Assembly: GCA_040880725.1 (NCBI GenBank)
Contig: JBBDHV010000005.1
Coordinates: 56,340-120,339 of the forward strand
Source: Acidimicrobiia bacterium
Lineage (GTDB): Bacteria > Actinomycetota > Acidimicrobiia > Spongiisociales > ZC4RG35
Direction: 5' to 3'
Length of the DNA: 64,000 nucleotides
Shown: piece after piece, positions 12,351-53,300 of the stretch
Layout of the letters: each line of letters starts with the position of its first letter
Numbering within the stretch: the stretch's first letter is position 1
Program-made: the position numbers and the translations under genes
Notes under the pieces: model-generated
The model's input: only the letters and a program-made list of their open reading frames with translations
Told to the model about the DNA's origin: nothing
Databases searched by the model: none

Positions 12351-13387
12351 CCGGTGAGCCGTTCCGCAAGCGCGACGACCGCAAGGTGTGGTTCCCGCAG
12401 GCTTCCGACGTACAGGAGCCGTCCGTGCGAGATCGCCGAGGTGGTGAACCCCACGCGTCCCGTGGAATCCTGGAGGTTGGCAATCACGGTGCCGGTCTCG
12501 TCGAAGGCGGCGACGAAACCATGGCGGGAGACTTTTGGATGCAACCCCGCGGGAAGCCGATGGATGAGCGCGCGAGAGTGCGGCAGATTCGCGGTGGCGT
12601 CGAGCTTCCGGTCGCGGGGGCGGGGGAAGCCGCACCAGAACAGCCCGTCGCTCAGGTTGAGGTTGTCGGGCAAGCCGGGAAGGTTCTCGCAGAACATGTC
12701 GTGGCTTCCGGCGTCCGGTCCTTTGAGCCACACCCGGTGGATGCGGTAACTGCCGAGTTCGGCAACGAGCACGAAGCGCTCTGCCGTTGCAAGCGCCACC
12801 CCGTTGGCGAAGACCAACCCGTCGAGTACGACGTCGAGGTCGCCGTTCGTGTCGCGCCGGTACAACGCTCCGGTCGCCGAGCGTTCCAGGAGGTCGGTGT
12901 TGTACCGGGACAGCGGCCACCGGTGCGATGACACCGAGAAGAAGATCGTGCCGTCCCCAGCGACTGCGGCGTTGTTGGTGAGCAAGAACGGGACCCCTCG
13001 ATACCCGTGGGCGAGCACCTCGACGGAGCCGTCGGGGGAAAGCCGCTGCAGGCCTATGTCGGCATTGCAGATGATGAACGACTCGCCGTCGGCGTCGAGT
13101 TCGACTCCGAGGGGGCGACCCCCGACATCGCCGATCGTTTCAGGAGGCCCGCCGTCGGGCGAGAAGCGCACGATCCTTCCGTCACGGAGTCCGCTCACCG
13201 GGCGTCCGCGACCGTCGATCGCCACATCTTCGGGGCCGGTGCCCGTCGTGTCCCACAGGGCGGCGGCGCGAAGGTGGTCGTTGACGGCGAACGGACCGAC
13301 GAGGCCGTGATCGCGGGGCGGCTGCCACTTCCTGGGTTGGAACACCACCGGGCGATTGTGGTCGAACGAAGCGGCAGACGCTAACAC
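12347..13387 (-). CDS. strictosidine synthase-like / SMP-30-gluconolactonase-LRE family beta-propeller protein
   Basis: Has 'GPEDVAIDGRGR', 'GRPLGVELDADG', 'NNAAVAGDGTIFFS', 'FANGVALA' and 'GLPDNL'. The start is ambiguous: GTG 13387 or ATG 13426. The latter would overlap herA. Confidence 0.75.
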   Translation of the reverse strand: MLASAASFDHNRPVVFQPRKWQPPRDHGLVGPFAVNDHLRAAALWDTTGTGPEDVAIDGRGRPVSGLRDGRIVRFSPDGGPPETIGDVGGRPLGVELDADGESFIICNADIGLQRLSPDGSVEVLAHGYRGVPFLLTNNAAVAGDGTIFFSVSSHRWPLSRYNTDLLERSATGALYRRDTNGDLDVVLDGLVFANGVALATAERFVLVAELGSYRIHRVWLKGPDAGSHDMFCENLPGLPDNLNLSDGLFWCGFPRPRDRKLDATANLPHSRALIHRLPAGLHPKVSRHGFVAAFDETGTVIANLQDSTGRVGFTTSAISHGRLLYVGSLREPHLAVVALAERLTG

Positions 13388-13411
13388 TGCCCACTGATAC
13401 CCTCGCCGGAG

Positions 13412-15103
13412 ATGAGCGAGCACCATTCGGACCAGCCCACCGTGGGGCGGGTCATCGGCACCGAGGACGCCACGCCCCTGGAATTCTGGGTCGCGGTCGC
13501 CGAAGGCCAGTACCTGCAACTCGACGACGTCGTGGCACTCGAGCGGGTCCTGCCCGGTGGGGAGTTGGTCTCCATGTTCGGGATGGTGTCACAAGTCCGG
13601 GCGCGCCACGAGGGGGCACGTTTCGACTCCGATGTGTTCCTCATCGAGGACGGTGTGCTTCCCGCAGAGGTCGCCGAGTCGGCGAAGATCGCAGCCACTC
13701 GTTTCGAGCCTGAGACGTTCGTCCCACCCCGGCCGGGACAGGCCGTGCGCCGAGCGGTGGGAGACGAGCGGGAGAAGGCCCTGTTCTTCGACCGGATGGA
13801 CGAGCGCCTCCCGATCGGCCTGTCACGATCCGGTGAGCCGCTGTTCGTCAACCTCGAGTTCCTCGACGGCCGGCGTGGAGCCCACGTCAACATCTCGGGG
13901 ATCTCGGGAGTCGCCACGAAGACCACCTATGCCACGTTCTTGCTGCACTCGATCTTCACGAGCGGGGTGCTCGGGGCGCGAGCGGTCAACACCAAAGCCC
14001 TGATCTTCAACGTCAAGGGCGAGGACCTGCTGTTCTTGGATCGTCCGAACTCGGCTCTCGATCCGGACCAGGCCGCCCGCTACGGAACCCTGGGGCTTCC
14101 CGCCGAGGCGTTCGCGTCGCTTTCGGTGTACGCCCCACCGAGGCCGGGGGGATCCGTGGCGGCCCCCGATGTCTACTCGCGCACCGATGGCGTCGTGACG
14201 AGCTTCTTCTGGACTCTCGAACAGTTCTGTCACGACGATCTGCTCCCGTTTCTGTTCGCCGACGCCGAGGACGACAGGGCGCAGTACACGATGGTGATCC
14301 ACAACGTCATGGCGCGGCTGCACAAGGCGGTGGCCCTCGACGATGGGGCGGTGATGTTGGATGGCGAGACGGTGCGGACCTTCACGGACCTCACCCAACT
14401 CATCCAACGGCGCGTCACCGACGACGACTGGGCCGGGCCGGCGATTGGAATGGGGACCGTCAATGCCTTTGTTCGTCGCCTGCTGGGTTCGGTGCGACAC
14501 GTCGAGCGCCTGATCCGCGGCGATGTCGTGAACGCCGCCAAGCACCAGATCAGCCTGGACAGTCAGGTGACGGTGGTCGACATCCACAATCTCAACGATC
14601 GCGCCAAACGGTTCGTCGTCGGCGTCACCATTCGGCGTCAGTTCGAGTTCAAGGAACGCGCCGGTCAGTCCGACGAGCTCTTGTTCCTGGTCCTCGACGA
14701 ATTGAACAAGTACGCCCCTCGGGACGGCTCCAGTCCGATCAAGGAGATCCTGCTGGATGTCGCCGAGCGGGGGAGGAGCCTGGGTGTCATCCTCGTCGGT
14801 GCCCAACAGACGGCCTCGGAGATCGAACGCCGCATCATCGCCAACTCGTCGATCCGAGTAGTCGGACGTCTCGACTCTGCCGAGGCCGCACGGGAGGAAT
14901 ACGGCTTCCTCCCGACGGTACAGCGGCAACGGTCCACGATCCTGAAACCCGGGACGATGATCGTCTCCCAACCGGAACTCCCGGTGCCGCTCGTGCTCGA
15001 GTTCCCGTTCCCGGCGTGGGCGACGCGGGCATCCGAGGCCTCAACAGCGGTTCCCTCCGGCGGACCGGAGGACCCGTTCGCGGGGCTCGACGTCGGCCGC
15101 TGA
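13412..15103 (+). CDS. herA: HerA-like (FtsK/HerA superfamily, DUF87) ATPase/helicase
   Basis: N-terminal HAS-barrel-like 'VGRVIGTEDATPLEFWVAVAEGQYLQLDDVV'. Walker B 'LFLVLDELNKYAP'. 'ERGRSLGVILVGAQQTASEIERRIIANSSIRVVGRL' is typical of HerA. The P-loop is deviant (GISGVATKT). Confidence 0.8.
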   Translation: MSEHHSDQPTVGRVIGTEDATPLEFWVAVAEGQYLQLDDVVALERVLPGGELVSMFGMVSQVRARHEGARFDSDVFLIEDGVLPAEVAESAKIAATRFEPETFVPPRPGQAVRRAVGDEREKALFFDRMDERLPIGLSRSGEPLFVNLEFLDGRRGAHVNISGISGVATKTTYATFLLHSIFTSGVLGARAVNTKALIFNVKGEDLLFLDRPNSALDPDQAARYGTLGLPAEAFASLSVYAPPRPGGSVAAPDVYSRTDGVVTSFFWTLEQFCHDDLLPFLFADAEDDRAQYTMVIHNVMARLHKAVALDDGAVMLDGETVRTFTDLTQLIQRRVTDDDWAGPAIGMGTVNAFVRRLLGSVRHVERLIRGDVVNAAKHQISLDSQVTVVDIHNLNDRAKRFVVGVTIRRQFEFKERAGQSDELLFLVLDELNKYAPRDGSSPIKEILLDVAERGRSLGVILVGAQQTASEIERRIIANSSIRVVGRLDSAEAAREEYGFLPTVQRQRSTILKPGTMIVSQPELPVPLVLEFPFPAWATRASEASTAVPSGGPEDPFAGLDVGR

Positions 15104-15312
15104 CCGACGCTCGCAGACCCACGGGGGTGGCCACCCGCGACCACACCCCGTCATGGGCCATGGGGTGACAACGAGGGCTTCGACATGCCGGCTTCCAGTT
15201 GTGAGATGAGGCTGGCGGACTCTGGCAGACTCCGGGACTCGAGGATGTACCTCCATGAGACATGGTGCGCAGTGTGACTGAGCAGCAGGGGAAGAGGGAT
15301 GTGAACGGCGGG

Positions 15313-16515
15313 ATGACATTCGACGTGTGTGTGGTGGGTGCGGGACTCGTCGGATTGGCGACCGCTCGTGCTCTGACGGAGTTGCGGCCCGGTCTCGCGG
15401 TGCTGGTATTGGACAAAGAGGACGGCGTGGCCCGCCACCAGAGCAGCCACAACAGCGGAGTCGTCCACTCGGGGCTTTATTACAAGCCCGGCTCGTTGAA
15501 GGCCCGGTTGTGTGTCGAAGGCCGGGAAGCGATGTACGCCCTATGCGACGAGGCGCATATCGCCGCCGATCGGTCGGGCAAGCTCGTGATCGCGACCGAT
15601 CCGTCCGAAATCACCGCCCTCGACGAACTGGAGCGTCGGGGTCGGGCGAACGGTCTCGAAGGACTGAAGCGGCTGTCCGCCGACGAGATCGCTGCATTCG
15701 AGCCGCATGCGGTCGGTCTGGCCGCGCTGCTCGTTCCCGAGGCCGGCGTGGCGGACTTTCCCGCCGTCGCCGAACACGTCGCAGCCCTGCTCGCCCGTTC
15801 CGGGGCCGAGATCCGCACCTCCCATGCAGTGGAGAGCATCGCGCACAGGGCCGACGGAGTCGAGGTGCGCGCCGGAGGTGAACGATTCATGGCGCGATCC
15901 CTGGTCAACTGTTCGGGCCTCCACTCCGACAGGGTGGCGGCGATGGCAGGGGTCACGCCTCGTGTCCGCATCGTCCCGTTTCGGGGCGAGTACTACAAGC
16001 TCGCGGCGCCCGCAGCCGACCTCGTACGCGCGCTGATCTACCCCGTCCCCGACCCGCGCTTTCCATTTCTCGGAGTCCACTTCACGCGACGGATCGACGG
16101 CGCGGTGGAAGTGGGACCGAATGCGCTGCTCGCGCTCGGACGGGAGCACTATCGGGGAACTTCTCCCGACTGGTCGGACCTCGCCGAGACGGTGCGACAT
16201 GCCGGCTTTCGCCGGCTCGCGGCCCGACATTGGCGGTCCGGCGCCAAGGAGTTGATGAATTCACGGTCGCGCCGGCTATACGCCCGTCTGGCGGGGCGTC
16301 TCGTCCCGGGGATGACCGCTTCCGACCTGCTGGCGGGCGGCTCGGGTGTCCGCGCACAGGCGGTCGCGTCCGACGGGTCGCTCGTCGATGACTTCGTGTT
16401 CGAAGAGGCAGGTTCGACCATCCACGTGCTCAATGCACCGTCCCCGGGTGCCACTGCCAGTCTTGCCATCGGACGCCACATTGCCGAACGGACACTTCCC
16501 CTGATCCGACGGTGA
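15313..16515 (+). CDS. lhgO: L-2-hydroxyglutarate oxidase/dehydrogenase (FAD-dependent)
   Basis: ATG 15313 (MTFDVCVVGAGLVGLA, a dinucleotide fold). 'HQSSHNSGVVHSGLYYKPGSLKA' is characteristic of LhgO. Confidence 0.85.
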   Translation: MTFDVCVVGAGLVGLATARALTELRPGLAVLVLDKEDGVARHQSSHNSGVVHSGLYYKPGSLKARLCVEGREAMYALCDEAHIAADRSGKLVIATDPSEITALDELERRGRANGLEGLKRLSADEIAAFEPHAVGLAALLVPEAGVADFPAVAEHVAALLARSGAEIRTSHAVESIAHRADGVEVRAGGERFMARSLVNCSGLHSDRVAAMAGVTPRVRIVPFRGEYYKLAAPAADLVRALIYPVPDPRFPFLGVHFTRRIDGAVEVGPNALLALGREHYRGTSPDWSDLAETVRHAGFRRLAARHWRSGAKELMNSRSRRLYARLAGRLVPGMTASDLLAGGSGVRAQAVASDGSLVDDFVFEEAGSTIHVLNAPSPGATASLAIGRHIAERTLPLIRR

Positions 16516-16769
16516 CGTGGGCGCCGAAGTGTGTACTGGCACTGATGCTTCGGACCGACCGCCTCAACGTCACCCCGCTGGACGATCCGGCGACTGCCAT
16601 CGTCGTGGGCGTGGACACCAGCAACGTCGACACGGTGCTGATCGCCGGCCGGGTGATGAATCGGGCTGGCAGGCTCTCGCACGTCGACTGGGCTGCAGTT
16701 CGCAGGATGACCGGGGAATCCCGCGATCGGGTGATCGAGAAGTCGGGATTCAAGCCGCCTCGGATCTGA
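16512..16769 (+). pseudogene. C-terminal relic of an amidohydrolase (metal-dependent deaminase/chlorohydrolase family)
   Basis: The 85-codon ORF reads '..LMLRTDRLNVTPLDDPATAIVVGVDTSNVDTVLIAGRVMNRAGRL..'. That is the last ~80 residues of ~450-aa amidohydrolases. There is no catalytic barrel upstream. Its GTG overlaps the lhgO stop. Confidence 0.6.
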
Positions 16770-16788
16770 GTGGCTGTCCCAGTCGGCG

Positions 16789-17991
16789 TCAGCGCCGGAG
16801 GATCGATCCTGTCGAGGGAAACTCCACTGCGCTGTCCGCTTTGCGGAGGTGTTCGGCGAACGCGCCCAGATCGGCGCGTTCCCAGGGTTGGTAGATGTGT
16901 GGTGTGCCGGGCGGGTGGGCGGAGCCGGTTTCGGTGCGGAGAAAGTCGAGGATCTCTGCCCGCACCGGCTCGGGACACAGCGGAGACGACATGACCGATT
17001 CGATCGACTCCGTTCGCATCCCGGAGACATGTGCGTCGCCCTTGTCCTCGTGAAAGTGTGGGTTGCGAGTCTCCACCTGAAAGACGTCCACCGAGGACAC
17101 CTCTGGGTGCGGCGATGGTCCGACGCCGCCGAACTGCTCGAATAACTCGACAAACTCGTAGGGCTCCACCGCGAAGCCGCCGGCGAAACGAAGTCTCTTG
17201 GCCAGTTCCATCGTCATCGCGTGCTCACCTGCGTTCCCAGTCCGGATCACCTCTGTGCCAAAGCCGTTGTAATGGGAGAGCACCAGATTGAGGAACCGAT
17301 TGGTGACGTGGGTGGTCCGGCCCCACCGGTTGAAGACGAGCCGCCCCTCTTCGACCTTCGGCTTGGACTGCCATGAGATCCGCACCATCGCGTACGGGGT
17401 GGGCGCGAGGTGGAGGCCCGCCGCGAACACCTTCACATACTCGTGGACCGCCCCCGGAACGTAGTTGTCGGCATCGATGAAGCCCACGTGCGCTTTCTGA
17501 GCGAGCGCGGCCATGAGCATGCCGATCACCATCGCTTCTCCCTTCCCGCGCCGCACGAGATGGCCGTCGATCAGGTCGCCCATCCCCGAGCTGCCGAGCG
17601 CATCGGCCAGGCCCGGATCGTCCTGATGGACGGCCACTGCCGGACGATCTGCCACACGACAGAACCGATCCAGTAGTTCGAGTTCGAGGCCGAACCGGTC
17701 GACGGGGGCCCGTTCGGATGCGGAGACCAGCACGATCAGGCAGTCATGGGGAATTCCCGACAGCACGCCTTCGATGACCTTGCGGCGTTCGTTCTTGGTG
17801 GGCACGACGATGGCCATGTGCTGTTCGACGGCATGAATCGCAGCAGGCGGAACGAGGTTGACGAGTCTGCCGTCCACGGTGGTCGCGTCGGGGTCGCCAT
17901 CGAGGCCGGAGTCGAGTTCGATGACTTGGGTGGTCTCGTGGATGCGGACAGCGCCGAACCGCTCGTGGCGGTGGGGGTACTCGATCCGCAT
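16789..17991 (-). CDS. mpgS: mannosyl-3-phosphoglycerate synthase (GT55)
   Basis: ATG 17991 (MRIEYPHRHERFGAVRIHETTQVIELDSG). 'IVVPTKNE', 'HQDDPGLADAL', 'RRGKGEAM', 'GFIDADNYVPGAVHEYVK', 'TGNAGEHAMTMELA' and 'FQVETRNPHFHEDKGDAHV' align block by block with Pyrococcus MpgS as I recall it. Confidence 0.9.
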   Translation of the reverse strand: MRIEYPHRHERFGAVRIHETTQVIELDSGLDGDPDATTVDGRLVNLVPPAAIHAVEQHMAIVVPTKNERRKVIEGVLSGIPHDCLIVLVSASERAPVDRFGLELELLDRFCRVADRPAVAVHQDDPGLADALGSSGMGDLIDGHLVRRGKGEAMVIGMLMAALAQKAHVGFIDADNYVPGAVHEYVKVFAAGLHLAPTPYAMVRISWQSKPKVEEGRLVFNRWGRTTHVTNRFLNLVLSHYNGFGTEVIRTGNAGEHAMTMELAKRLRFAGGFAVEPYEFVELFEQFGGVGPSPHPEVSSVDVFQVETRNPHFHEDKGDAHVSGMRTESIESVMSSPLCPEPVRAEILDFLRTETGSAHPPGTPHIYQPWERADLGAFAEHLRKADSAVEFPSTGSILRR

Positions 17992-18044
17992 CGTCGGGCG
18001 AGGGTATCGGAGAAGTGTCGGTACCGGGCGATACAGTCGGCGAC

Positions 18045-19175
18045 GTGAAGGCGCTGCACACTTCGGACTGGCACGTGGGGCGAGCGATACGGGGCCGCAG
18101 CCGGGCTGGGGAGCATCGTGAGGTGCTCGCCGAGATCGTCGAGCAGGCGTCCTCGCAGTCGGTGGATCTGGTGTTGGTGGCGGGTGACCTGTTCGACTCC
18201 GCGGCACCGCCGCCGGAGTCCGAGAGCATCGTCTTCCGGGCGCTTCTCGATCTCGCGGACGTCGCGCCGGTGGTCGTCGTGGCAGGCAACCACGACAATC
18301 CACGGCGATTCGAGGCTTTGCAGCCGCTGCTGGCACTGGGCAGGGTGACGGCGATCTCTGCCCTCCGCCCACCTGACGACGGGGGAGTGCTCGACTTCGC
18401 ATCCATCGGCACGCGGGTCGTGCCGATTCCCTGGACGAGCCAGCGGGCCATCGTTTCCGCCGACGATCTCATCGGACGGGACCGAGACGACAACGTGGTG
18501 GCGTACATCGACAGGATGCGACGGGTGATCGAGTCGCTGACCGCCGACCTCACCACCGGCACCGTGAATCTCGTGGTCGCCCACCTGATGATGCATGTGG
18601 AACCGAAGATGACCGCAGGCAGCGAACGTGTGGCGCACACCGTCTTCGAATACTCGCTCCCGGCCCAGGCGTTTCCGGGGTCCCTCAGCTATGTGGCGCT
18701 CGGCCATCTCCATCGTCCGCAACGGGTTCCCACGGCCGCACCGGTCCGCTACTCGGGGTCCCCGCTGCAACTCGACTTCGGCGAGGCCGGGGAGCAGAAG
18801 TCGACGGTGTTGGTGGAGGCCGAGCCGGGTCGGCCGGCGAAGCTCACCGAACTGCCCCTGATCGGTGGCACTCGGCTCGCGGTGCTGCGCGGGACGTTGC
18901 CACAGGTCTTCGAACAGGCCGAGGCGATGGGGGAGGCACACATCCGCGTCGTGCTCGAAGAAACCCCTCGCGTCGGGCTCGCCGAAGAGGTGCGGCAACG
19001 GATACCGGGAGCGGTCGATGTGGTCCTCGAGCGGACACAGGATTCGGCAACGCCTCCCGAACGGGCGCGCCTCGGTCGCCCGCCCCGGGAGCTCTTTGTC
19101 GAATACCTCGAACACCAGCAGGCCGACGTCGGGCTGGTGACGATCTTCGACGAGTTGTTCGACGAGGTGTCATGA
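18045..19175 (+). CDS. sbcD: Mre11/SbcD-family DNA repair nuclease
   Basis: Phosphoesterase motifs 'HTSDWHVG', 'VAGDLFD', 'AGNHD' and 'ALGHLHRPQ'. GTG 18045 (VKALHTSDWH) is preferred. The track start is GTG 18015. Confidence 0.9.
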   Translation: MKALHTSDWHVGRAIRGRSRAGEHREVLAEIVEQASSQSVDLVLVAGDLFDSAAPPPESESIVFRALLDLADVAPVVVVAGNHDNPRRFEALQPLLALGRVTAISALRPPDDGGVLDFASIGTRVVPIPWTSQRAIVSADDLIGRDRDDNVVAYIDRMRRVIESLTADLTTGTVNLVVAHLMMHVEPKMTAGSERVAHTVFEYSLPAQAFPGSLSYVALGHLHRPQRVPTAAPVRYSGSPLQLDFGEAGEQKSTVLVEAEPGRPAKLTELPLIGGTRLAVLRGTLPQVFEQAEAMGEAHIRVVLEETPRVGLAEEVRQRIPGAVDVVLERTQDSATPPERARLGRPPRELFVEYLEHQQADVGLVTIFDELFDEVS

Positions 19176-21535
19176 GACCGGTCGCTCTTCACCTTGCCGG
19201 GTTCACTGCCTATCGAGCACCGACGGACATCGACTTCCAGGGCGCGGACCTCTTTGCGTTGACCGGCCCGACCGGATCGGGAAAATCGAGCATCATCGAC
19301 GCCATCTGCTTCGCGCTGTACGGCTCGATACCCCGGCTGACCGGCGTCGCTCCTGTCGTGTCGCTCGGAAAGCCCGAAGCGCGGATTCGGCTGGTGTTCG
19401 AGGTCGAGGGTGAGACGTGGACGGTGAGTCGACTCATCGTGCGACATGGGGAGGGCGCCTCCCAGCGGGATGTCCGCCTGGAAGGCCCGGGCGTGGCGCT
19501 GGAGGGCGTGCGCGAGGTCGATGCCCGCATCGTGCGGTTGCTCGGCCTCGGATTTGATCACTTCACGCGGACCGTCGTGTTGCCGCAGGGTCGGTTCGCG
19601 GCATTCCTCGAAGACGGTCCCGCCGCCCGGGAGAAGCTGCTCAAGCAGTTGCTGGACCTCGGTGTGTACGAGGAAATGCGCAAGCGCGGCGCGTCCCACG
19701 CGACCCGGCTGGAAGGTGAGATCGCCGTCATCGACGCGCAGTGCCACGACCTCCTGGTCGACGAGGACCAGGTCATCCAAGCCCAGCATCGGCTCGATCG
19801 ACTCGTGTCACTCCGGGACTTCGTCGCCGAGGCTGCGGCCACGCAGGAGAAGGCGGCCACGGCATTGCGAGAGGCTCGGGAGGCGAGAGAACGGGTCGTC
19901 GTGGACCTGGGACGGTTGGCGGCGGTCAAGGCGCCCGTGGGTCTTGACGACATGAGCGCGGCGTTGGCTGCAGCTCGGTCAGGGGTCGACGACGCTCGGG
20001 AGAAGCTGGCAGTAGCACAGGCTGCGGCAGTCGAGATCGACGCACGGCGGGCCGAGCTCGGTGAGCTGTCCGCGCTGGACGGGGCGATCGCGATCCACAC
20101 TCGCATCGCCGAACTGACCGAGCGTCTCGCCCGCGGCAGCAAGCTGGTCGAAGAGGCCAAAGCGGTCACCCAGAAGACCCTCGACGAATTCGAGGCGGCC
20201 GTGGCGCGGGTGGACGACTCCGCGGCCTCGCTGGGAGTCCTCGAGCAGGCCCACGCAGCCCACGCGATTCGGGCGCACCTCCAGGACGGCGACGAATGTC
20301 CCGTCTGTCAGCGTTTGATCAATGCAGTGCCTGGATCCGAACCTCCGGCGGATCTCGAGGCGGCCAGGGACACCTTGGCCAAGGCGACCGCTGCCCGCGA
20401 CGCCGTGAATCTCCGGCTCGCGGAGTCCCGGGCGGAGCTCGCCCGGCTCGAAGGACACCTCGAACAGCGCACCGAGGAGCTGGCGGATGCTCGGAGTGCC
20501 GCCGGCGGCCAACTCTCGCTCGACGACGCACGACAACGTCGGGAGGCAGCCGGGGCGCTCGACACAGAGGTTGGGTCTGCCCGGGCGGCGCTGACGGAGG
20601 CGGGAGCCCGGCACGACCGCGCGGTCGCCGCCCTGGAGGCCGCAGAGAAGGCTGGGGCGGCGGCTTCCGAGACGCTCGACCGGGCGCGTGACACCCTCGC
20701 GGGGCTCGAACCCCCGGTTGCACAGCGCGCTCATCCCGCAGCGGACTGGGCGACGCTGCTGGAGTGGTGCAAGGAGCGGCAAGCCGCCTTCGATGCCCGC
20801 CGGGTCGAACTCGACGAGGAAGCGAACCGTCGTGAGTCGGAGGTCGGCGAGGCGCGCGCCGCGATCGAAGCGGCCGCGGCAGAGGCCGGGCTTTCCGAGG
20901 TTGGTGACGATGTGAAGGTCTCGGTGGCCGCCGCCATCGCCAAGACGGAGGCGACCCTCCAGAGGTTGCAGGCAGACCTCGAAAAGCGTCGGGATCTCGA
21001 GAGCCGACGCAAGACACTCGATGGAGAGCGACTGCGGTATGACGAGACGGCCAAGCTCCTGCGCTCGAACCGGTTCCAGCAGTGGATGATCGAAGAAGCG
21101 CTCGTCGGTCTCGTCGACTTCGCAAACGCCGAGTTGACCAAGCTCGCGGGTGGGGCGTATTCGCTGGCCGTCGTGAGCGGGGACTTCGAGGTGATCGATC
21201 ACCGAAACGCCGAGGCGAGACGGTCGGTGAAGACACTGTCGGGTGGGGAGACGTTTCTCGTCTCGTTGGCGCTCGCGTTGGCCCTCGCCGAACGGGTGGT
21301 CGCGACGTCGGCGATCGGCACCGCCCGCATCGAGTCCATGTTCCTCGACGAGGGCTTCGGCACGCTGGACTCCGAGACACTCGACGTTGTCGCGTCGGTC
21401 GTCACCGAACTCGGTTCACGTGACCGGATGATCGGACTCGTCACACACGTTCGGGAACTGGCCGACCAGATTCCCACTCGATTCGAGGTGCGCAAGTTGC
21501 CCGACGGGGCCACGGTCACACGGGTGGACGCGTGA
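19172..21535 (+). CDS. sbcC: Rad50/SbcC-family SMC-like ATPase
   Basis: Walker A 'GPTGSGKSS'. Long Ala/Glu/Arg coiled coil with a central zinc hook 'CPVC' (nt 20297-20308). Signature 'LSGGETFLVSLAL', Walker B 'MFLDEGFGTLD', H-loop 'LVTHV'. ATGA overlap with sbcD. Confidence 0.9.
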   Translation: MRPVALHLAGFTAYRAPTDIDFQGADLFALTGPTGSGKSSIIDAICFALYGSIPRLTGVAPVVSLGKPEARIRLVFEVEGETWTVSRLIVRHGEGASQRDVRLEGPGVALEGVREVDARIVRLLGLGFDHFTRTVVLPQGRFAAFLEDGPAAREKLLKQLLDLGVYEEMRKRGASHATRLEGEIAVIDAQCHDLLVDEDQVIQAQHRLDRLVSLRDFVAEAAATQEKAATALREAREARERVVVDLGRLAAVKAPVGLDDMSAALAAARSGVDDAREKLAVAQAAAVEIDARRAELGELSALDGAIAIHTRIAELTERLARGSKLVEEAKAVTQKTLDEFEAAVARVDDSAASLGVLEQAHAAHAIRAHLQDGDECPVCQRLINAVPGSEPPADLEAARDTLAKATAARDAVNLRLAESRAELARLEGHLEQRTEELADARSAAGGQLSLDDARQRREAAGALDTEVGSARAALTEAGARHDRAVAALEAAEKAGAAASETLDRARDTLAGLEPPVAQRAHPAADWATLLEWCKERQAAFDARRVELDEEANRRESEVGEARAAIEAAAAEAGLSEVGDDVKVSVAAAIAKTEATLQRLQADLEKRRDLESRRKTLDGERLRYDETAKLLRSNRFQQWMIEEALVGLVDFANAELTKLAGGAYSLAVVSGDFEVIDHRNAEARRSVKTLSGGETFLVSLALALALAERVVATSAIGTARIESMFLDEGFGTLDSETLDVVASVVTELGSRDRMIGLVTHVRELADQIPTRFEVRKLPDGATVTRVDA

Positions 21536-22437
21536 GGTTCTCGGTCGAGACATGGGCGCCGGAGTACGGGTCGCCCATGGAGGCCGAGATGGAAGAGTCG
21601 ACGGTCACGGTCGACGTCGCGGTCGAAGTCCCGAAGGACGCGTGGCGGCCTCTCGAAGTCGACGCTGCGCCGTCGCCCGACGTCGTGTTCGTGGATGGAG
21701 TGCGCCGGATCGACGCCAACGTGTGGATCGACGACGGGAGCGATCCGCCCACGTATGGAGTGTGCGCCACCTACGCCGCGGGGGCGGTGCGGTGCAATGG
21801 GTCCGCAGACGTCGCGGCAGTAATGGTGGAACGCAGCCTGTTCACGGCGGCGCGGTCGGCGGAATCGATCGACACCCGGCACGGCAGCTACGGCGTGGTG
21901 TCAACCGTGGGCTCGTCCCCCGAGGATTTGTGGATCGGCATCCAGAAGCGCATGGGAATCCTCGAAGGACGCGTGTCGGCCGGTCTCGAGGGAACCGGGA
22001 TGATCGTCGTCGACGGGCCACTGTCCCATCATCAACAGGTCGAGGGTGCGGTGGGCTACGTGAAGAGTCAGCATGTCCATCACCTCCCACCCGAGGTGCG
22101 GGGAATCCTCCGGGAGATTCCGGTGGGTCGGCGGACCCCGGTGTTCATGGTCGGGGGAGCCAGGCAGGTCTTCTCGTGGTATCTGCGTTTGTCCGCGCTG
22201 GGCGGCAGCATGTCGGGGGTGGTGCGCTGTGAGGTCGAGGCGGCAGGAACCGCCGCAGAGGCAGTGCACATCGCCGATCGGGTGACCGCCACGCTGCCCC
22301 GATTCGCGTCCCACGAGCACAAGGACCCGCGCGCTCCCCAAAACCTCTACCCCATCGGCGGACTCGAACGCGAACTGCGCCGCAGGCTCGGTGACCCGAT
22401 GCTGATGTACCGCGCCCTCCGCCGCGCCGCCGCCTGA
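21532..22437 (+). CDS. NurA-like nuclease candidate (RNase-H-fold), third gene of the mre11-rad50 operon
   Basis: GTGA overlap with sbcC. Has 'VVFVDGVRRID', 'MIVVDGPL', 'VGYVKSQH', 'FSWYLRL' and C-terminal 'LYPIGGLERELRR' in the order of NurA motifs (DGS.., DG.L, vsK.., fY.r.., YP..L). Assigned from motif pattern only. Confidence 0.45.
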   Translation: MRFSVETWAPEYGSPMEAEMEESTVTVDVAVEVPKDAWRPLEVDAAPSPDVVFVDGVRRIDANVWIDDGSDPPTYGVCATYAAGAVRCNGSADVAAVMVERSLFTAARSAESIDTRHGSYGVVSTVGSSPEDLWIGIQKRMGILEGRVSAGLEGTGMIVVDGPLSHHQQVEGAVGYVKSQHVHHLPPEVRGILREIPVGRRTPVFMVGGARQVFSWYLRLSALGGSMSGVVRCEVEAAGTAAEAVHIADRVTATLPRFASHEHKDPRAPQNLYPIGGLERELRRRLGDPMLMYRALRRAAA

Positions 22438-22449
22438 CCCCACCGCCCC

Positions 22450-22497
22450 GCGTACCCTGGGTTCGCAGGGACACTCCAGGTCCCTGGGAGCCCACGG
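22450..22497 (+). repeat. copy C of the ACCCTGGGTTC repeat family (left inverted repeat flanking alkB)
   Basis: GCGTACCCTGGGTTCGCAGGGACACTCCAGGTCCCTGGGAGCCCACGG lies 13 nt after the nurA-like stop. 36 of 48 positions, and 20 of the first 21, match the reverse complement of 23283-23330. Confidence 0.7.
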
Positions 22498-22575
22498 TTG
22501 GCCGCCCTTTCGACGCATGGGTACGCGACGACGCTCGGGAATGGAGATCACCCGTGCAGGCGCCGATCGTTCGGT

Positions 22576-23193
22576 TCAGTCGTATGCGTGACGAAACATC
22601 ACGGCGATGCGCGGTCCCGCGTGCGCGACCTTGGGAACGCTGTGGTCGTACGTGCGCTGACACGAACCACCCATCACGATGAGGTCTCCCCGGCCGGCTG
22701 CCCAGCCGATGCTGTTGCCCCCTCCCTTGGGTCGCACCCGAAACGGTCTCGGCTCTCCGAGGGACACGATTGCCACGGTGGCGCTTGGCCGCTCGCGTGC
22801 GATCCGGTCGCCATGCCAGGCGACACTGTCCTGTCCATCCCTGTACAGGTTGCAGGTGATCCGATCGAGCATCGCTCCGTAGCGGTGGCTGAGCGCCGCA
22901 GACATGTCCCGCAGCACGGTGAGGCCGGCGGGGACACCTTCGGAGCCGAACGATGCGACCTGGCGGGGACGGGGAACTTCTTCTCCTCGTATCTTCTCGG
23001 TGCCGTCGTGCCAGTCGACGCCGTCGAGCATGGCGAGGAAGAGGCCGTCGGGCCGCGCTACCCAACCCGGTTGGCGATCGATCCACGCACCATGGTCGAG
23101 TTCGGTGCGTGTCATGTGCTCGAAACCGGTGTCGAACGGGTCGGCCGATGCGGCGAGATCGAGGGTTCCCTGGAAGGTCAAATCCGCTGCCAT
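22576..23193 (-). CDS. alkB: alpha-ketoglutarate/Fe(II)-dependent dioxygenase AlkB (alkylation repair)
   Basis: Has 'NLYRDGQDSVAWHGDRIA' (HxD), 'GDLIVMGG', 'YDHSVPK' and 'RIAVMFR'. ATG 23193 (MAADLTF) is preferred. The upstream ATG 23286 lies inside repeat copy D. Confidence 0.85.
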   Translation of the reverse strand: MAADLTFQGTLDLAASADPFDTGFEHMTRTELDHGAWIDRQPGWVARPDGLFLAMLDGVDWHDGTEKIRGEEVPRPRQVASFGSEGVPAGLTVLRDMSAALSHRYGAMLDRITCNLYRDGQDSVAWHGDRIARERPSATVAIVSLGEPRPFRVRPKGGGNSIGWAAGRGDLIVMGGSCQRTYDHSVPKVAHAGPRIAVMFRHAYD

Positions 23194-23282
23194 GATCGCA
23201 GAGTAGTCGAACACACGTTCTGCATGGCAGAGCGCGCTCGCCCGGGCGACTCTCGCCCACTCCCACCGGTGTCCCGGGTGAA

Positions 23283-23330
23283 CCATGGGCTCTCAGGGCC
23301 ATCCCAGAGCCCTGGGAACCCAGGGTACGC
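23283..23330 (-). repeat. copy D of the ACCCTGGGTTC repeat family (right inverted repeat flanking alkB)
   Basis: The reverse complement reads GCGTACCCTGGGTTCCCAGGGCTCTGGGATGGCCCTGAGAGCCCATGG. It lies 20 nt downstream of the EamA stop (23350) in sense orientation. Confidence 0.7.
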
Positions 23331-23349
23331 CAGGGTGTCGGTCGGTCGG

Positions 23350-24243
23350 TCAGGACTCGCGGCGGGAGGCGAGGAAGGCGCCGGCGATGACGAGCAGCGC
23401 GCCGACGATCGCCAGGGCGCTGACGCGGTCGCTGCGGAAGCCGACTCCGAGACCGAGGGAGACGACCGGGATCAGGTAGGTGATGAACGAGGCGCGCGGA
23501 CCCCCCACGCGGCCGACGAGGGTCGCCATGAGGACGAAGGCCAGGCCGGTGCCTGCCACCCCCAGCACGGCGTTTGCCGCGGCTGCCGCCACCGTGAAAG
23601 TGGAGTCGGCGAGGCCCACGACGCCGAACGGCGTGGTCCAGACCGTGGCGAGGAGGAGCATCCGCGCCATCACCGGGACGGATCCGTACTTCTGCTGGAC
23701 CGGTCCGGCGATGTTGGTGGCCACTCCGTACGAGAGAGTTGCGAACAGGACCATCGTGACGCCGATGAATGCACTCGGCTCACCGGCTCCCGACGACAGG
23801 CTCACAGCGGCGATGCCGAGGAAGCCCACGGCGAGCCCGATCCGCTGCGGTCCCCGGCTGGGGCGACCGAAGAACAGGCCGCCGATGATCGCCGTGAAGA
23901 TCGGCATCGCCCCGTTCAGCATCCCTGTGACCGACGAGTTGATGTACTGCTGGGCGAGGGGAAACAACGTGAACGGAAGCGCCACCCAGACAATCGAGAG
24001 CACGAGCACCTTTCTGCTGTCGGCCGGCTCGAACCGCACCCGGGCGGACGGCAATGCGATGAGTGCGAGCGCGCCGAGTCCGACCCGCAGCCAGGTGATC
24101 AGTCCCGGGTGGAACGAGTCGAGGGCGATGTCGATGAACAGGAACGATGCGCCCCAGATGAACGAGACCGCCAGGAACAGTCCCCAGTCCTTGGGCTCGA
24201 ATGCTTCGCGGTCGTTGTGGACCGCGGTCGCCGGAAGGCTCAT
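23350..24243 (-). CDS. EamA/DMT-family transporter
   Basis: ATG 24243 (MSLPATAVHND..). 297 aa with 10 TM-like segments. Has 'FIWGASFLFI' and a duplicated EamA architecture. ATGA overlap with the upstream PNPOx gene. Confidence 0.85.
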   Translation of the reverse strand: MSLPATAVHNDREAFEPKDWGLFLAVSFIWGASFLFIDIALDSFHPGLITWLRVGLGALALIALPSARVRFEPADSRKVLVLSIVWVALPFTLFPLAQQYINSSVTGMLNGAMPIFTAIIGGLFFGRPSRGPQRIGLAVGFLGIAAVSLSSGAGEPSAFIGVTMVLFATLSYGVATNIAGPVQQKYGSVPVMARMLLLATVWTTPFGVVGLADSTFTVAAAAANAVLGVAGTGLAFVLMATLVGRVGGPRASFITYLIPVVSLGLGVGFRSDRVSALAIVGALLVIAGAFLASRRES

Positions 24244-24893
24244 CGGGTCATCTCTGTCACATGCCGAGGAACGTCGAGGCCCGGCGAGTTCTTCGGGTCG
24301 GCAAGGGGATCGGAGTATCCGGTGCGGGTGGGGAGTACGCCCGCCCAGATGTCGAGGGCGTAGTCCTCGGGTTCGTCGTTGGGCCCGCCGGTCCGTACTT
24401 TCACCGACGCCTCGTCGATCGGGATCGAGAACATCGCCGTGCCGCGGACTTCCTTGTCCGTCATCGGACGGAGATGCGGTCGTCGGCCCGGCACCACCTT
24501 GTCCACATATGCGTCGAGGATGCGCCGTCGCTCGTCGACCGACGTCATGACCTCGGTGTCGCCGAACACGACCACCGACCGGTAGTTGGCCGAGTGGTGG
24601 AACGCCGAGCGTGCCAGCACCAGTCCGTCGATGAGAGTGATCGTGACGCACACGGGAACTCCTCGTTTCGCGGTGCGGAAGAGGCGCGTTGCGGGAGAGC
24701 CGTGGAGGTAGAGACGGTCATCGATGCGGGCGTGGAGTATCGGTATGACGACGGGGCGGTCGTTGTCCACCAGACCGACATGGGCGACTGTCGCCTCGTC
24801 GATGATCGAGTACGCCAGGTCCCGATCGTACGAACCGCGCGCGGCGTAGCGGACGGTGGTGTGGTCGGTCCGGGAGAGTGGCGGGGGCGTCAT
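24240..24893 (-). CDS. pyridoxamine 5'-phosphate oxidase-fold (FMN-binding split barrel) family protein
   Basis: ATG 24893 (MTPPPLSRTDHTTVRYAARGSYDR..). Has 'VAHVGLVDNDRPVVIPILHARIDDRLYLHGS' and 'SVVVFG', typical of the PNPOx-like family. Confidence 0.75.
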   Translation of the reverse strand: MTPPPLSRTDHTTVRYAARGSYDRDLAYSIIDEATVAHVGLVDNDRPVVIPILHARIDDRLYLHGSPATRLFRTAKRGVPVCVTITLIDGLVLARSAFHHSANYRSVVVFGDTEVMTSVDERRRILDAYVDKVVPGRRPHLRPMTDKEVRGTAMFSIPIDEASVKVRTGGPNDEPEDYALDIWAGVLPTRTGYSDPLADPKNSPGLDVPRHVTEMTR

Positions 24894-44098: not shown

Positions 44099-44221
44099 GA
44101 CCCGAACCGTAGGCGCGCGGTTCCGGTAGCCGAAACATGTCCCGGGTGATCGCGGCGGGGAACATTCGGATCCCTGTCCCCGGCGTCTCCTATGCTCGGG
44201 GTACGACCACGAGGAGAGCTC

Positions 44222-53193: not shown

Positions 53194-53300
53194 GCGACCA
53201 ACGTACAGAAGGGGTGTGACATTTTCTGAGACGACGTCGGCGGGTGAATCGGCCCCTTGACTGCCGGCGTCTCTCGCCGACAGGAGAGGCGAGAGTCACT

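What the first reader, a model, noticed from the sequence alone, without database searches (positions are those of the whole stretch)
13412..22437. Archaeal-order herA ... mre11-rad50-nurA-like DNA-end-resection module in a bacterium, split by unrelated genes
- **Seen:** the module has four parts. A HerA-type FtsK-superfamily ATPase (13412-15103). An Mre11/SbcD nuclease (18045-19175). A short Rad50/SbcC of 787 aa with a CPVC zinc hook (19172-21535). A third, translationally coupled gene whose motif order resembles NurA (21532-22437).
- **Established:** in archaea, herA-mre11-rad50-nurA form one operon for 5' end resection. In bacteria, HerA/NurA pairs such as those in Deinococcus-Thermus are normally not linked to sbcCD, and sbcCD normally has no third gene.
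- **What differs here:** the archaeal gene order is kept, but herA is separated from mre11 by 2.9 kb. That gap carries lhgO, an amidohydrolase relic and mpgS on the opposite strand.
- **Inference:** this is either a laterally acquired archaeal-type resection machine that later suffered an insertion or rearrangement, or an undescribed bacterial four-component end-processing or anti-invader system.
Basis: partly seen in the sequence, partly recalled or inferred. Interest (0 to 1): 0.75.

Follow-up and report, generated by a model that had tools for sequence, protein, structure and literature searches.

The report
Bacterial HerA, SbcCD, NurA repair cluster
This Acidimicrobiia bacterium carries a real four-gene DNA-break-processing set (HerA motor, SbcD/SbcC end nuclease, NurA nuclease) made of bacterial-type proteins, and the same set turns out to be widespread in bacteria but poorly annotated; it is not a recent import from archaea.

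Summary
All four genes exist at the stated coordinates, and each identity was verified.
- **HerA:** the 563-aa protein matches Deinococcus HerA (PDB 7F6D_B) at E=7e-148.
- **NurA:** the 301-aa protein is a bacterial-type NurA by sequence (7F6D_H, profile E=2e-32) and by predicted fold (Foldseek E=2e-18).
- **SbcD and SbcC:** both match E. coli SbcCD better than archaeal Mre11/Rad50.

**Linkage.** sbcC sits directly upstream of nurA in 79 of 79 assessable related Acidimicrobiia loci. herA lies upstream on the same strand in 65 loci and is contiguous in 41. The window is therefore a derived form, split by insertion of lhgO and mpgS.

**Wider distribution.** The four genes are also clustered in Streptomyces, Nonomuraea, Nostocales and Chlorohelix records. 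In a second metagenomic clade the order is nurA-herA-sbcD-sbcC. That order was noted in print for Oceanithermus.

**Regulation.** In Acidimicrobiia, herA and sbcD each usually carry a leaderless promoter that matches the actinobacterial RecA-independent DNA-damage motif. This points to damage-induced end resection.

**Verdict.** The archaeal-transfer reading is not supported. This is a new member of a known kind, of moderate interest.

The parts
13382..13403 (+). Degenerate copy of the herA promoter motif, TAACACTGCCCACTGATACCCT, ending 8 nt before the herA ATG. The -10 element TACCCT is kept, but the upstream TGTC reads TAAC.
   Evidence: Sequence. The closest relatives L001 and L002 have TGTCGGTCCCCACTGATACTCT at the same place. 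42 of 58 related loci carry TGTC-N12-TAnnnT before herA.
13412..15103 (+). herA: bacterial-type HerA hexameric dsDNA translocase/ATPase, 563 aa. Walker A GVATKT at 166-171, catalytic-Glu region KGEDL at 202-206, Walker B LDELNKY at 428-434.
   Evidence: PDB 7F6D_B (D. radiodurans HerA) E=7.3e-148 in two stretches that cover nearly the whole protein. Motifs, and their roles in DrHerA in PMC9960219. No Pfam hit. Only weak C-terminal HerA hits in PADLOC.
15262..16515 (+). lhgO (L-2-hydroxyglutarate oxidase). Inserted cargo, not part of the module.
   Evidence: NF008726 E=7e-155. No LhgO match in any of the 80 related loci.
16789..17991 (-). mpgS (mannosyl-3-phosphoglycerate synthase). Inserted cargo, transcribed divergently from sbcD.
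   Evidence: PF09488 E=2e-142. Start MRIEYPHRHERFGA read at 17991. Present next to sbcD in 15 of the 80 related loci, including all six with NurA at least 72% identical to the window's.
18016..18037 (+). RecA-NDp-like (PafBC-type) promoter motif TGTCGGTA-CCGGGCGA-TACAGT, ending 7 nt before the sbcD GTG. This implies a leaderless sbcD-sbcC-nurA mRNA.
   Evidence: It is the only hit to the strict pattern in the 64-kb window on either strand. The relaxed motif precedes sbcD in 54 of 71 related loci, against a background of 0.005 per 126 nt. The start codon lies 7-8 nt after the -10 element in most cases. The consensus tTGTCRgtg-8nt-TAnnnT is quoted in PMC5656591.
18045..19175 (+). sbcD: Mre11-family nuclease subunit, 376 aa, with all phosphoesterase motifs (DWHVG, GDLFD, GNHD, AHL, GHLH).
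   Evidence: TIGR00619 E=6e-49. E. coli SbcD 4LTY/6S6V E~1e-32, against Pyrococcus Mre11 at 7e-11. Sequence.
19172..21535 (+). sbcC: Rad50-family ABC ATPase, 787 aa. Walker A at 32-39, CPVC zinc hook at residues 376-379 (nt 20297-20308), signature LSGGE, Walker B FLDEGFG, H-loop THV. The start overlaps the sbcD stop (ATGA).
   Evidence: TIGR00618 E=3e-75. E. coli SbcC 6S6V_C E=2e-43; that chain is 1048 aa, so the coiled coil here is shorter. Motifs and junction.
21532..22437 (+). nurA: bacterial-type NurA nuclease, 301 aa, RNase-H-like fold. D55, E145, D161 and H263/D265 are invariant in the family alignment. The GTG start overlaps the sbcC stop (GTGA).
   Evidence: 7F6D_H E=4e-18 and 1ZUP E=8e-6. 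Profile search E=2e-32. AF2 pLDDT 86. Foldseek 7F6D_G E=2e-18, TM 0.69. Invariant residues. An identical protein in NCBI is labelled 'hypothetical protein [Acidimicrobiia bacterium]', while some homologues are named NurA.

Best explanation
This is a chromosomal, vertically inherited bacterial module for processing DNA double-strand breaks and collapsed forks. It combines SbcCD with a bacterial-type HerA-NurA complex.

**Proposed mechanism**
1. SbcC (a Rad50-like ABC ATPase dimerised through its CPVC zinc hook) and SbcD (an Mre11-like nuclease) recognise DNA ends and clean them, including blocked or hairpin ends.
2. A HerA hexamer then threads the duplex through its pore into a NurA dimer.
3. 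The NurA dimer separates the strands and degrades the 5' strand, leaving a 3' tail for RecA.

**Organisation.** In Acidimicrobiia the module is two neighbouring transcription units: herA, and sbcD-sbcC-nurA. Each is normally driven by its own leaderless promoter of the actinobacterial RecA-independent DNA-damage type (RecA-NDp, PafBC-type). Because each unit has its own promoter, the herA/sbcD junction tolerates insertions. In this genome lhgO and mpgS have landed there.

**Shown here**
- The identity of the genes and the integrity of their motifs.
- The NurA fold.
- Conservation of the linkage.
- The two gene orders.
- The placement and specificity of the promoter motif.

**Inferred**
- Physical and functional cooperation of SbcCD with HerA-NurA.
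- Induction by DNA damage.
- PafBC as the regulator.
- The stoichiometries, which are taken from the Deinococcus and archaeal complexes.
For: **Identity**
- HerA, NurA, SbcD and SbcC were each matched to characterised proteins or family models.
- Their catalytic motifs are intact.

**Linkage in Acidimicrobiia**
- sbcC lies directly upstream of nurA in 79 of 79 assessable loci.
- herA lies upstream on the same strand in 65 loci, and is contiguous in 41.

**Linkage elsewhere**
- All six plasmid-database records that carry this HerA also have sbcD-sbcC beside it. They are Streptomyces, Nonomuraea, Sphaerospermopsis, Nostoc, Aulosira and Chlorohelix.
- In a second metagenomic clade, herA follows nurA in 54 of 55 loci, sbcD follows herA in 35 of 38, and sbcC follows sbcD in 32 of 32.

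**Stable locus**
- EamA and PNPox flank nurA downstream in most loci.
- G+C is uniform.

**Promoter**
- 96 of the 109 TGTC-N12-TAnnnT instances in 2.83 Mb of related loci lie just upstream of herA or sbcD.
- The start codon follows the -10 element by 7-8 nt.
- The consensus for the motif is quoted in PMC5656591.
- sbcD belongs to the PafBC regulon in Mycolicibacterium smegmatis (PMC11348249).
- A third motif copy in the window precedes a DUF222/HNH endonuclease gene.

**Biochemical precedent**
- The Deinococcus NurA-HerA complex resects ends in a translocation-coupled way (PMC9960219).
- In Sulfolobus, herA, mre11, rad50 and nurA sit in one operon and all four are essential (PMC4351679).
Against: - No expression, interaction or activity data exist for this organism or for any member of this clade.
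- In Deinococcus and Thermus, nurA and herA mutants have mild or even improved damage resistance, and the function of the bacterial complex is described as controversial (PMC9960219, PMC4663267).
- In this window the herA promoter has lost the TGTC element. Co-regulation of herA with sbcD-sbcC-nurA is therefore uncertain in this particular genome.
- The motif was not found in the Streptomyces or Nonomuraea loci.
- Presence of pafBC in this genome was not checked.
- A few copies lie on plasmids next to defence-like genes.
Confidence: 0.7

Rival explanations
1. The module is an anti-invader (defence) system. HerA-NurA and SbcCD together would recognise and destroy the free ends of incoming linear phage or plasmid DNA, rather than repair the chromosome.
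For: - HerA-family ATPases and NurA-like nucleases occur in defence systems. The fourth Foldseek hit of the NurA model is TdpAB chain 8WFD_G, E=2e-3.
- The HerA C-terminus hits PADLOC HerA models weakly, and SbcC hits LmuB and mad3.
- The Chlorohelix plasmid copy lies beside TIR, HEPN and ImmA/IrrE genes. The Streptomyces plasmid copy lies near ImmA/IrrE and a restriction endonuclease.
Against: - No PADLOC model matches at full length, and the PADLOC hits are to generic P-loop or SMC-head regions.
- The locus is fixed in the chromosome, with conserved flanks, across NurA identities from 53% to 82%. Defence islands are normally variable.
- This HerA occurs in only 6 of 72,556 plasmid records, and the NurA query found no match in any of 50,697 phage records.
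- The promoter is of the DNA-damage type.
Confidence: 0.1
2. The module is an archaeal herA-mre11-rad50-nurA operon acquired by lateral transfer and later disrupted.
For: - The ancestral Acidimicrobiia order herA-sbcD-sbcC-nurA is the order in which the Sulfolobus mre11-operon genes are listed (PMC4351679).
- Published work regards the HerA of Thermus and Deinococcus as being of ancient archaeal origin (PMC5448004).
Against: - HerA and NurA retrieve only bacterial solved structures of the repair type (Deinococcus, Thermotoga). No archaeal HerA or NurA chain was retrieved.
- Bacterial and archaeal NurA-HerA share less than 20% identity (PMC9960219).
- SbcD and SbcC match bacterial SbcCD models and E. 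coli structures much better than archaeal ones.
- Composition is native.
- Most other bacteria sampled carry the same proteins in the order nurA-herA-sbcD-sbcC. The archaeal-like order is therefore most simply a cyclic permutation that arose within bacteria.
Confidence: 0.04
3. HerA-NurA and SbcCD act in separate pathways and are merely co-regulated neighbours. For example, HerA-NurA could modulate RecJ as proposed for Deinococcus, while SbcCD handles hairpins and convergent forks.
For: - Each unit has its own promoter, even when the genes are contiguous: 36 of 41 contiguous loci carry a motif before sbcD.
- Insertions between herA and sbcD are tolerated repeatedly.
- In Deinococcus and Thermus the nurA-herA pair functions without linked sbcCD (PMC5448004, PMC4663267).
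Against: - nurA is translationally coupled to sbcC and not to its known partner herA.
- The four-gene linkage persists in two different gene orders and in four phyla. That is hard to explain without functional dependence.
- Archaeal Mre11 binds HerA, as stated in the title of PMC2288612.
Confidence: 0.15

Closest known systems
Deinococcus radiodurans NurA-HerA complex (PDB 7F6D; PMC9960219) and Thermus thermophilus NurA-HepA (PMC5448004)
   Same: - The protein families are the same.
- HerA aligns over its full length at E=7e-148, with identical Walker A, catalytic-Glu and Walker B segments.
- NurA shares sequence and fold, including the Asp of the VDG motif.
   Different: - In Deinococcus and Thermus, nurA and herA are adjacent with overlapping genes, and they are not linked to sbcCD.
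- Here nurA is coupled to sbcC, and herA lies upstream of sbcD. In this genome herA and nurA are 6.4 kb apart.
- This NurA is shorter (301 aa, against a 369-aa chain in 7F6D).
Oceanithermus profundus nurA-hepA-sbcD-sbcC cluster (noted in PMC5448004), and the same order found here in Nostocales, Chlorohelix and many metagenomic contigs
   Same: The same four bacterial-type genes lie in one cluster, which implies a combined SbcCD plus HerA-NurA function.
   Different: - The gene order is cyclically permuted. In Actinomycetota (Acidimicrobiia, Streptomyces, Nonomuraea) nurA is last and follows sbcC.
- In Acidimicrobiia there are two promoters.
- In this window the module is further split by lhgO and mpgS.
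Archaeal herA-mre11-rad50-nurA operon (Sulfolobus, Pyrococcus; PMC4351679, PMC2288612)
   Same: - The four functional roles are the same.
- In the unsplit Acidimicrobiia form the gene order is the same.
- The proposed division of labour is the same: end recognition by Mre11-Rad50, then long-range 5' resection by HerA-NurA.
   Different: - The proteins here are bacterial lineages and not archaeal ones.
- Regulation uses an actinobacterial-type damage promoter.
- Essentiality and physical interactions are unknown here.
E. coli SbcCD (PDB 6S6V)
   Same: It is the best solved-structure match for both subunits. All nuclease and ABC-ATPase motifs and the CxxC hook are present.
   Different: - SbcC here is 787 aa against 1048 aa, so the coiled coil is shorter.
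- A third gene (nurA) overlaps the sbcC stop codon, and a HerA gene is associated upstream.
Actinobacterial RecA-NDp / PafBC DNA-damage regulon (PMC5656591, PMC6789036, PMC11348249)
   Same: - The promoter architecture is TGTC-N12-TAnnnT, with the start codon 7-8 nt after the -10 element.
- sbcD is a reported PafBC-regulon member in M. smegmatis.
   Different: - Outside the TGTC core the Acidimicrobiia consensus (TGTCcc/TGTCac) departs from the mycobacterial gtg.
- The regulator and the induction itself were not tested.

Membership tests
Bacterial-type HerA (DrHerA-like, FtsK-HerA superfamily) | Full-length sequence homology to a characterised bacterial HerA, including the N-terminal (HAS-barrel) region | tested here: met
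   7F6D_B E=7.3e-148. Query residues 10-312 align with chain residues 14-337, and 337-544 with 392-602.
Bacterial-type HerA (DrHerA-like, FtsK-HerA superfamily) | Walker A Lys/Thr, ASCE catalytic acidic residue and Walker B Asp-Glu | tested here: met
   GVATKT at 166-171, KGEDL at 202-206 and LDELNKY at 428-434 are identical to the DrHerA segments in the alignment. Residue roles are given in PMC9960219.
Bacterial-type HerA (DrHerA-like, FtsK-HerA superfamily) | Hexameric ring, DNA-stimulated ATPase and dsDNA translocation | not testable with these tools
   Needs purified protein.
NurA nuclease (bacterial type: DrNurA, TM1739) | Sequence homology to characterised or solved NurA proteins | tested here: met
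   7F6D_H E=4e-18 and 1ZUP E=8e-6. Profile search E=2.4e-32 and 6.7e-13. PF09376 is recorded for several close homologues, and NCBI names some of them NurA. The window protein itself gets no Pfam or NCBIfam hit.
NurA nuclease (bacterial type: DrNurA, TM1739) | RNase-H-like catalytic fold | tested here: met
   AF2 model pLDDT 86.3, pTM 0.84. Foldseek 7F6D_G E=2e-18 (TM 0.69) and 1ZUP E=2e-14 to 7e-14 (TM up to 0.73). Weaker hits are Argonaute PIWI and RNase H domains.
NurA nuclease (bacterial type: DrNurA, TM1739) | Conserved acidic catalytic residues | tested here: met
   D55, E145 and D161 are invariant in the 27-sequence alignment and in the 14-sequence cross-phylum alignment. D55 aligns with the Asp of VVDG in DrNurA. 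That Asp is probably the D53 whose D53A mutant is inactive (PMC4663267). The numbering offset is my inference.
NurA nuclease (bacterial type: DrNurA, TM1739) | Genetic pairing with herA and a 2:6 complex with HerA | tested here: inconclusive
   herA is in the same cluster in 65 of 80 related loci but is never adjacent to nurA in Acidimicrobiia. It is adjacent in the other clade, 54 of 55. Complex formation cannot be tested here.
SbcCD (bacterial Mre11-Rad50) | SbcD phosphoesterase motifs; SbcC Walker A and B, signature motif and CxxC zinc hook; overlapping sbcD-sbcC genes | tested here: met
   TIGR00619 6e-49 and TIGR00618 3e-75. E. coli SbcD and SbcC structures are the top PDB hits.
Archaeal-type herA-mre11-rad50-nurA operon | Proteins belong to the archaeal HerA, NurA, Mre11 and Rad50 lineages | tested here: not met
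   No archaeal HerA or NurA chain was retrieved. Archaeal Mre11 and Rad50 models and structures score far below the bacterial ones.
Archaeal-type herA-mre11-rad50-nurA operon | Four genes contiguous in the order herA, mre11, rad50, nurA | tested here: inconclusive
   Not met in the window, which has a 2.9-kb insert carrying an opposite-strand gene. Met in 41 related loci, although sbcD usually has its own promoter there.
Known anti-phage defence systems (PADLOC-DB v2) | Full-length match of the components to a defence-system model set | tested here: not met
   There are only partial P-loop or SMC-head matches. The best HerA hit is 5.5e-9 over about 110 residues, and NurA has none.
RecA-NDp / PafBC-type DNA-damage regulon | Promoter motif tTGTCRgtg-8nt-TAnnnT immediately upstream of the gene | tested here: met
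   For sbcD: TGTCGGTA-N8-TACAGT at 18016-18037, the only strict-pattern hit in the window. For herA in this window the motif is degenerate (TAAC for TGTC). It is intact in L001 and L002, and present in 42 of 58 loci.
RecA-NDp / PafBC-type DNA-damage regulon | PafBC present in the genome, and PafBC-dependent induction by DNA damage | not tested
   The window was not searched for pafBC. Induction needs an experiment.

The most novel reading that the evidence does not exclude
In Actinomycetota, SbcCD, NurA and HerA assemble into one damage-induced 'resectosome'. Translational coupling of nurA to sbcC would reflect a direct SbcC/SbcD-NurA contact that hands cleaned ends straight to HerA-NurA. This would be a bacterial long-range resection pathway parallel to AdnAB/RecBCD and RecJ, controlled by the PafBC-type response. 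It would also settle the disputed role of bacterial NurA-HerA.
Probability: 0.3. Interest if true: 0.6.

Novelty: new member of a known kind. Interest (0 to 1): 0.4.

Why it matters
Bacterial NurA-HerA has been studied only in Deinococcus and Thermus. There it is unlinked to SbcCD, its mutants have weak phenotypes, and its role is called controversial (PMC9960219). Whether it connects to SbcCD was left open (PMC4663267).

**What the comparative data here add**
- Those model organisms are the exception. In Acidimicrobiia, other Actinomycetota, Nostocales, a Chloroflexota plasmid and many uncultured lineages, the bacterial-type nurA and herA sit in a four-gene cluster with sbcD and sbcC.
- In Acidimicrobiia, and in part of the nurA-first metagenomic clade, the cluster carries DNA-damage-type promoters.
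- Together these give a concrete, testable case that bacteria have an Mre11-Rad50 plus HerA-NurA resection pathway like that of archaea.

**Annotation gap.** Pfam and NCBIfam miss these proteins, so genomes label them 'ATP-binding protein' and 'hypothetical protein'.

For this particular window, the split arrangement is an ordinary insertion event.

Tried and rejected
- **Pfam and NCBIfam on HerA and NurA.** No hits. These are false negatives, resolved by searching PDB sequences.
- **PADLOC.** Only generic partial hits. Membership of a known defence system is rejected.
- **'Amidohydrolase relic' between lhgO and mpgS.** No family hit for ORFs in 16512-16894 or for 16149-17153. Not confirmed.
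- **Consensus sigma-70 promoter and intrinsic terminator scan of 13000-23000.** Nothing above shuffled expectation.
- **Hairpins after herA and after nurA.** Energies no better than shuffles, z = +0.55 and -0.65. No terminator is claimed.
- **Rfam on 13000-24000.** No match.
- **The 621-aa ORF at 22498-24363 (+).** Low-complexity translation, lying antisense to the alkB-like and EamA genes. Treated as spurious.
- **Phage records.** No NurA match.
- **RecA-NDp-like motif in the Streptomyces and Nonomuraea loci.** Absent. Among the annotated Actinomycetota records examined, the promoter claim is therefore limited to Acidimicrobiia. It also holds for 12 unclassified contigs of the nurA-first clade.
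- **First metagenome scan, with the 14-sequence alignment.** Repeated successfully with 11 sequences.
- **Papers not held.** Iyer 2004, Constantinesco 2004 and Cheng 2015 could not be read. I cannot exclude that one of them already describes bacterial four-gene clusters.
- **Small ORFs in the short herA-sbcD gaps of other loci.** They looked like high-G+C noise. Only three clear cargo genes were confirmed.

Full report
**1. What is in the window**

- herA, 13412-15103 (+), 563 aa.
- sbcD, 18045-19175 (+). The longest ORF starts at 18015, but the homologue alignments and the promoter fit the GTG at 18045.
- sbcC, 19172-21535 (+), 787 aa.
- nurA, 21532-22437 (+), 301 aa, GTG start.

The sbcD stop overlaps the sbcC start (ATGA), and the sbcC stop overlaps the nurA start (GTGA).

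The gap between herA and sbcD holds two confirmed genes:
- lhgO, 15262-16515 (+): NF008726, 7e-155.
- mpgS on the minus strand: PF09488, 2e-142. Its real start is at 17991, which leaves a 53-bp divergent spacer to sbcD.

No amidohydrolase remnant was detectable between these two genes. G+C is even, at 0.64-0.71, across the region.

**2. Identity of the proteins**

Pfam and NCBIfam recognise neither the 563-aa nor the 301-aa protein. Comparison with solved structures settles both.

HerA:
- It matches Deinococcus radiodurans HerA (7F6D_B) at E=7.3e-148 over almost its whole length.
- Its Walker A (GVATKT), catalytic-Glu (KGEDL) and Walker B (LDELNKY) segments are identical to those of DrHerA (residue roles in PMC9960219).

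NurA:
- It matches D. radiodurans NurA (7F6D_H) at E=4e-18 and Thermotoga TM1739 at 8e-6.
- A 27-sequence profile raises these to 2.4e-32 and 6.7e-13.
- An AlphaFold2 model (pLDDT 86) superposes on DrNurA at E=2e-18 and on TM1739 at E=2e-14. Argonaute PIWI and RNase H folds follow as weak hits.
- D55, E145 and D161 are invariant, even across phyla.

SbcD and SbcC:
- Both carry all expected motifs, and SbcC has a CPVC hook.
- They match bacterial SbcD and SbcC models (6e-49, 3e-75) and the E. coli structures (1e-32, 2e-43) far better than archaeal Mre11 and Rad50 (7e-11, 9e-11).

No archaeal HerA or NurA structure was retrieved at all. All four proteins are therefore bacterial-type.

**3. Is the linkage real?**

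A scan of one genome per species found 405 loci that encode a relative of this NurA. The best 80 are nearly all Acidimicrobiia MAGs. Mapping the window's proteins onto them gave:
- sbcC directly upstream of nurA in all 79 loci that have sequence upstream of nurA.
- herA upstream on the same strand in 65 loci.
- herA contiguous with sbcD (gap under 400 bp, typically about 70 bp) in 41 of those.
- herA separated by 0.5-6 kb in the other 24.

The closest relatives of the window (L001, L002, L004-L006 and others) share mpgS on the opposite strand next to sbcD. None of the 80 loci has lhgO.

In other lineages the gap carries unrelated genes: a Na/Pi cotransporter, a PLP-dependent decarboxylase and a DUF952 protein.

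Downstream of nurA, the EamA transporter and a PNP-oxidase-like gene are conserved in most loci. The module therefore occupies a stable chromosomal position, and the window shows a derived, insertion-split form of it.

**4. Beyond Acidimicrobiia**

tblastn against annotated plasmid and replicon records found this HerA in only six of 72,556 records, and each of them has sbcD-sbcC next to it:
- Streptomyces sp. BB1-1-1 and Nonomuraea gerenzanensis: herA-sbcD-sbcC-nurA.
- Sphaerospermopsis, Nostoc, Aulosira and Candidatus Chlorohelix: nurA-herA-sbcD-sbcC.

In those records the genes are annotated 'ATP-binding protein' and 'hypothetical protein'. No phage record has the NurA.

A metagenome scan with a broader NurA alignment returned 80 contigs from a second clade. 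In that clade:
- herA directly follows nurA in 54 of 55 loci.
- sbcD follows herA in 35 of 38.
- sbcC follows sbcD in 32 of 32.
- sbcC is never upstream of nurA (0 of 43).

The NurA family is large: 1,798 clusters at 50% identity with E<=1e-3.

In the literature I could search:
- The bacterial linkage is mentioned once, for Oceanithermus profundus (nurA-hepA-sbcD-sbcC; PMC5448004).
- For Deinococcus the connection to SbcCD was explicitly left open (PMC4663267).
- The function of bacterial NurA-HerA is called controversial (PMC9960219).
- Three older key papers were not available to me.

**5. Regulation**

Upstream of sbcD the window has TGTCGGTA-CCGGGCGA-TACAGT, which ends 7 nt before the GTG. 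This matches the actinobacterial RecA-independent damage promoter tTGTCRgtg-8nt-TAnnnT (PMC5656591). It is the only strict-pattern hit in the 64-kb window.

The relaxed form TGTC-N12-TAnnnT occurs 109 times in 2.83 Mb (both strands) of the 80 loci. Of these, 96 lie just upstream of herA or sbcD:
- before herA in 42 of 58 loci;
- before sbcD in 36 of 41 contiguous loci;
- before sbcD in 18 of 30 split loci.

The start codon lies 7-8 nt after the -10 element in most cases, which implies leaderless mRNAs. The module is therefore two co-regulated units, and that explains why the herA/sbcD junction accepts insertions.

Further observations on the motif:
- In this window the herA copy keeps the -10 element but reads TAAC instead of TGTC. 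The closest relatives keep TGTC.
- Twelve loci of the nurA-first clade carry the motif right before nurA.
- The Streptomyces and Nonomuraea loci do not carry it.
- sbcD is a reported PafBC-regulon gene in M. smegmatis (PMC11348249).
- Another motif copy in the window precedes a DUF222/HNH endonuclease gene.

That PafBC is the regulator here, and that DNA damage induces these genes, are inferences.

**6. Mechanism and rivals**

The best-supported reading (confidence about 0.7) is a damage-responsive end-processing pathway:
1. SbcCD recognises and opens or cleans DNA ends.
2. A HerA hexamer feeds the duplex into a NurA dimer.
3. NurA removes the 5' strand and leaves a 3' tail for RecA.

This follows what is shown for the Deinococcus complex (PMC9960219) and for the archaeal four-gene system (PMC4351679, PMC2288612).

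The rivals are:
- **A defence role (about 0.1).** It is suggested by plasmid copies beside TIR, HEPN, ImmA/IrrE and restriction genes and by the TdpAB structural hit. Against it stand the fixed locus, the rarity on mobile elements and the type of promoter.
- **Independent but co-regulated pathways (about 0.15).**
- **Recent archaeal transfer (about 0.04).** The protein affinities contradict it.

The agreement with the archaeal gene order is most simply a cyclic permutation of the common bacterial order nurA-herA-sbcD-sbcC. That is an inference.

**7. Verdict**

The module and the insertion history are real. The archaeal origin is not supported, and 'undescribed' is overstated.
- This is a new member, in a permuted and locally split arrangement, of a known kind of system.
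- The wider pattern is of moderate interest to DNA-repair specialists because it makes the disputed role of bacterial NurA-HerA directly testable. That pattern is the near-universal linkage of bacterial NurA-HerA with SbcCD, the damage-type promoters and the systematic mis-annotation.

Noticed in passing
window 22576-23286 (-): An AlkB-like 2OG-Fe(II) oxygenase gene (PF13532, E=1e-14) lies convergent to nurA. It fills a roughly 900-bp space between nurA and the EamA gene. In the closest relatives (L001-L006) that space is only about 10-180 bp. This looks like a genome-specific insertion of another DNA-repair-type gene.
   Followed up: partly
window 53200-53221 (-) and 52111-53193 (-): A second RecA-NDp-like motif (TGTCACACCCCTTCTGTACGTT) ends 6 nt before the ATG of a DUF222 + HNH endonuclease gene. 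This suggests a wider damage regulon in this genome.
   Followed up: partly
window 44175-44196 (+) and 44192/44222-45097 (+): A third relaxed motif hit lies upstream of a rhodanese-domain gene. It sits 25 nt from the in-frame ATG at 44222 and overlaps the longest-ORF ATG at 44192. It may be a chance match.
   Followed up: no
window 15262-16515 (+): lhgO has no counterpart in any of the 80 related loci. It is therefore a window-specific addition on top of the older mpgS insertion.
   Followed up: partly
L018, L061, L027 (herA-sbcD gaps): The herA/sbcD junction is a recurrent insertion site that carries different cargo in different lineages: a Na/Pi cotransporter with a PhoU domain, a PLP-dependent decarboxylase and a DUF952 protein.
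   Followed up: partly
L081 702-1874 and L085 7596-8330: An ImmA/IrrE-family metallopeptidase gene lies next to the four-gene cluster on both the Streptomyces plasmid and the Chlorohelix plasmid. This may be an alternative damage-responsive control. In L081 an SF2 helicase with 'helicase associated' domains follows nurA.
   Followed up: no
L023 (OZ253564.1, Candidatus Spongiisociaceae): herA lies on the opposite strand just downstream of nurA, and a further partial SbcC-like match lies upstream on the minus strand. This is a locally rearranged version of the module.
   Followed up: no
L098, L104, L113, L120, L127, L133, L142, L148, L149, L151, L152, L157: In the nurA-first clade, 12 contigs carry TGTC-N12-TAnnnT immediately before nurA. 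The same promoter type therefore drives the other gene order in some lineages.
   Followed up: partly
window 13412-15103 and 21532-22437; L081, L084, L085: Current Pfam and NCBIfam models give no hit for these bacterial HerA and NurA proteins. RefSeq and GenBank records call them 'ATP-binding protein' and 'hypothetical protein'. This gap probably hides the cluster from routine annotation.
   Followed up: yes
window 22498-24363 (+): A 621-aa ORF with a low-complexity, Arg/Asp/Glu/Gly-rich translation runs antisense to the alkB-like and EamA genes. It has no family hit and is most likely a high-G+C artefact.
   Followed up: partly
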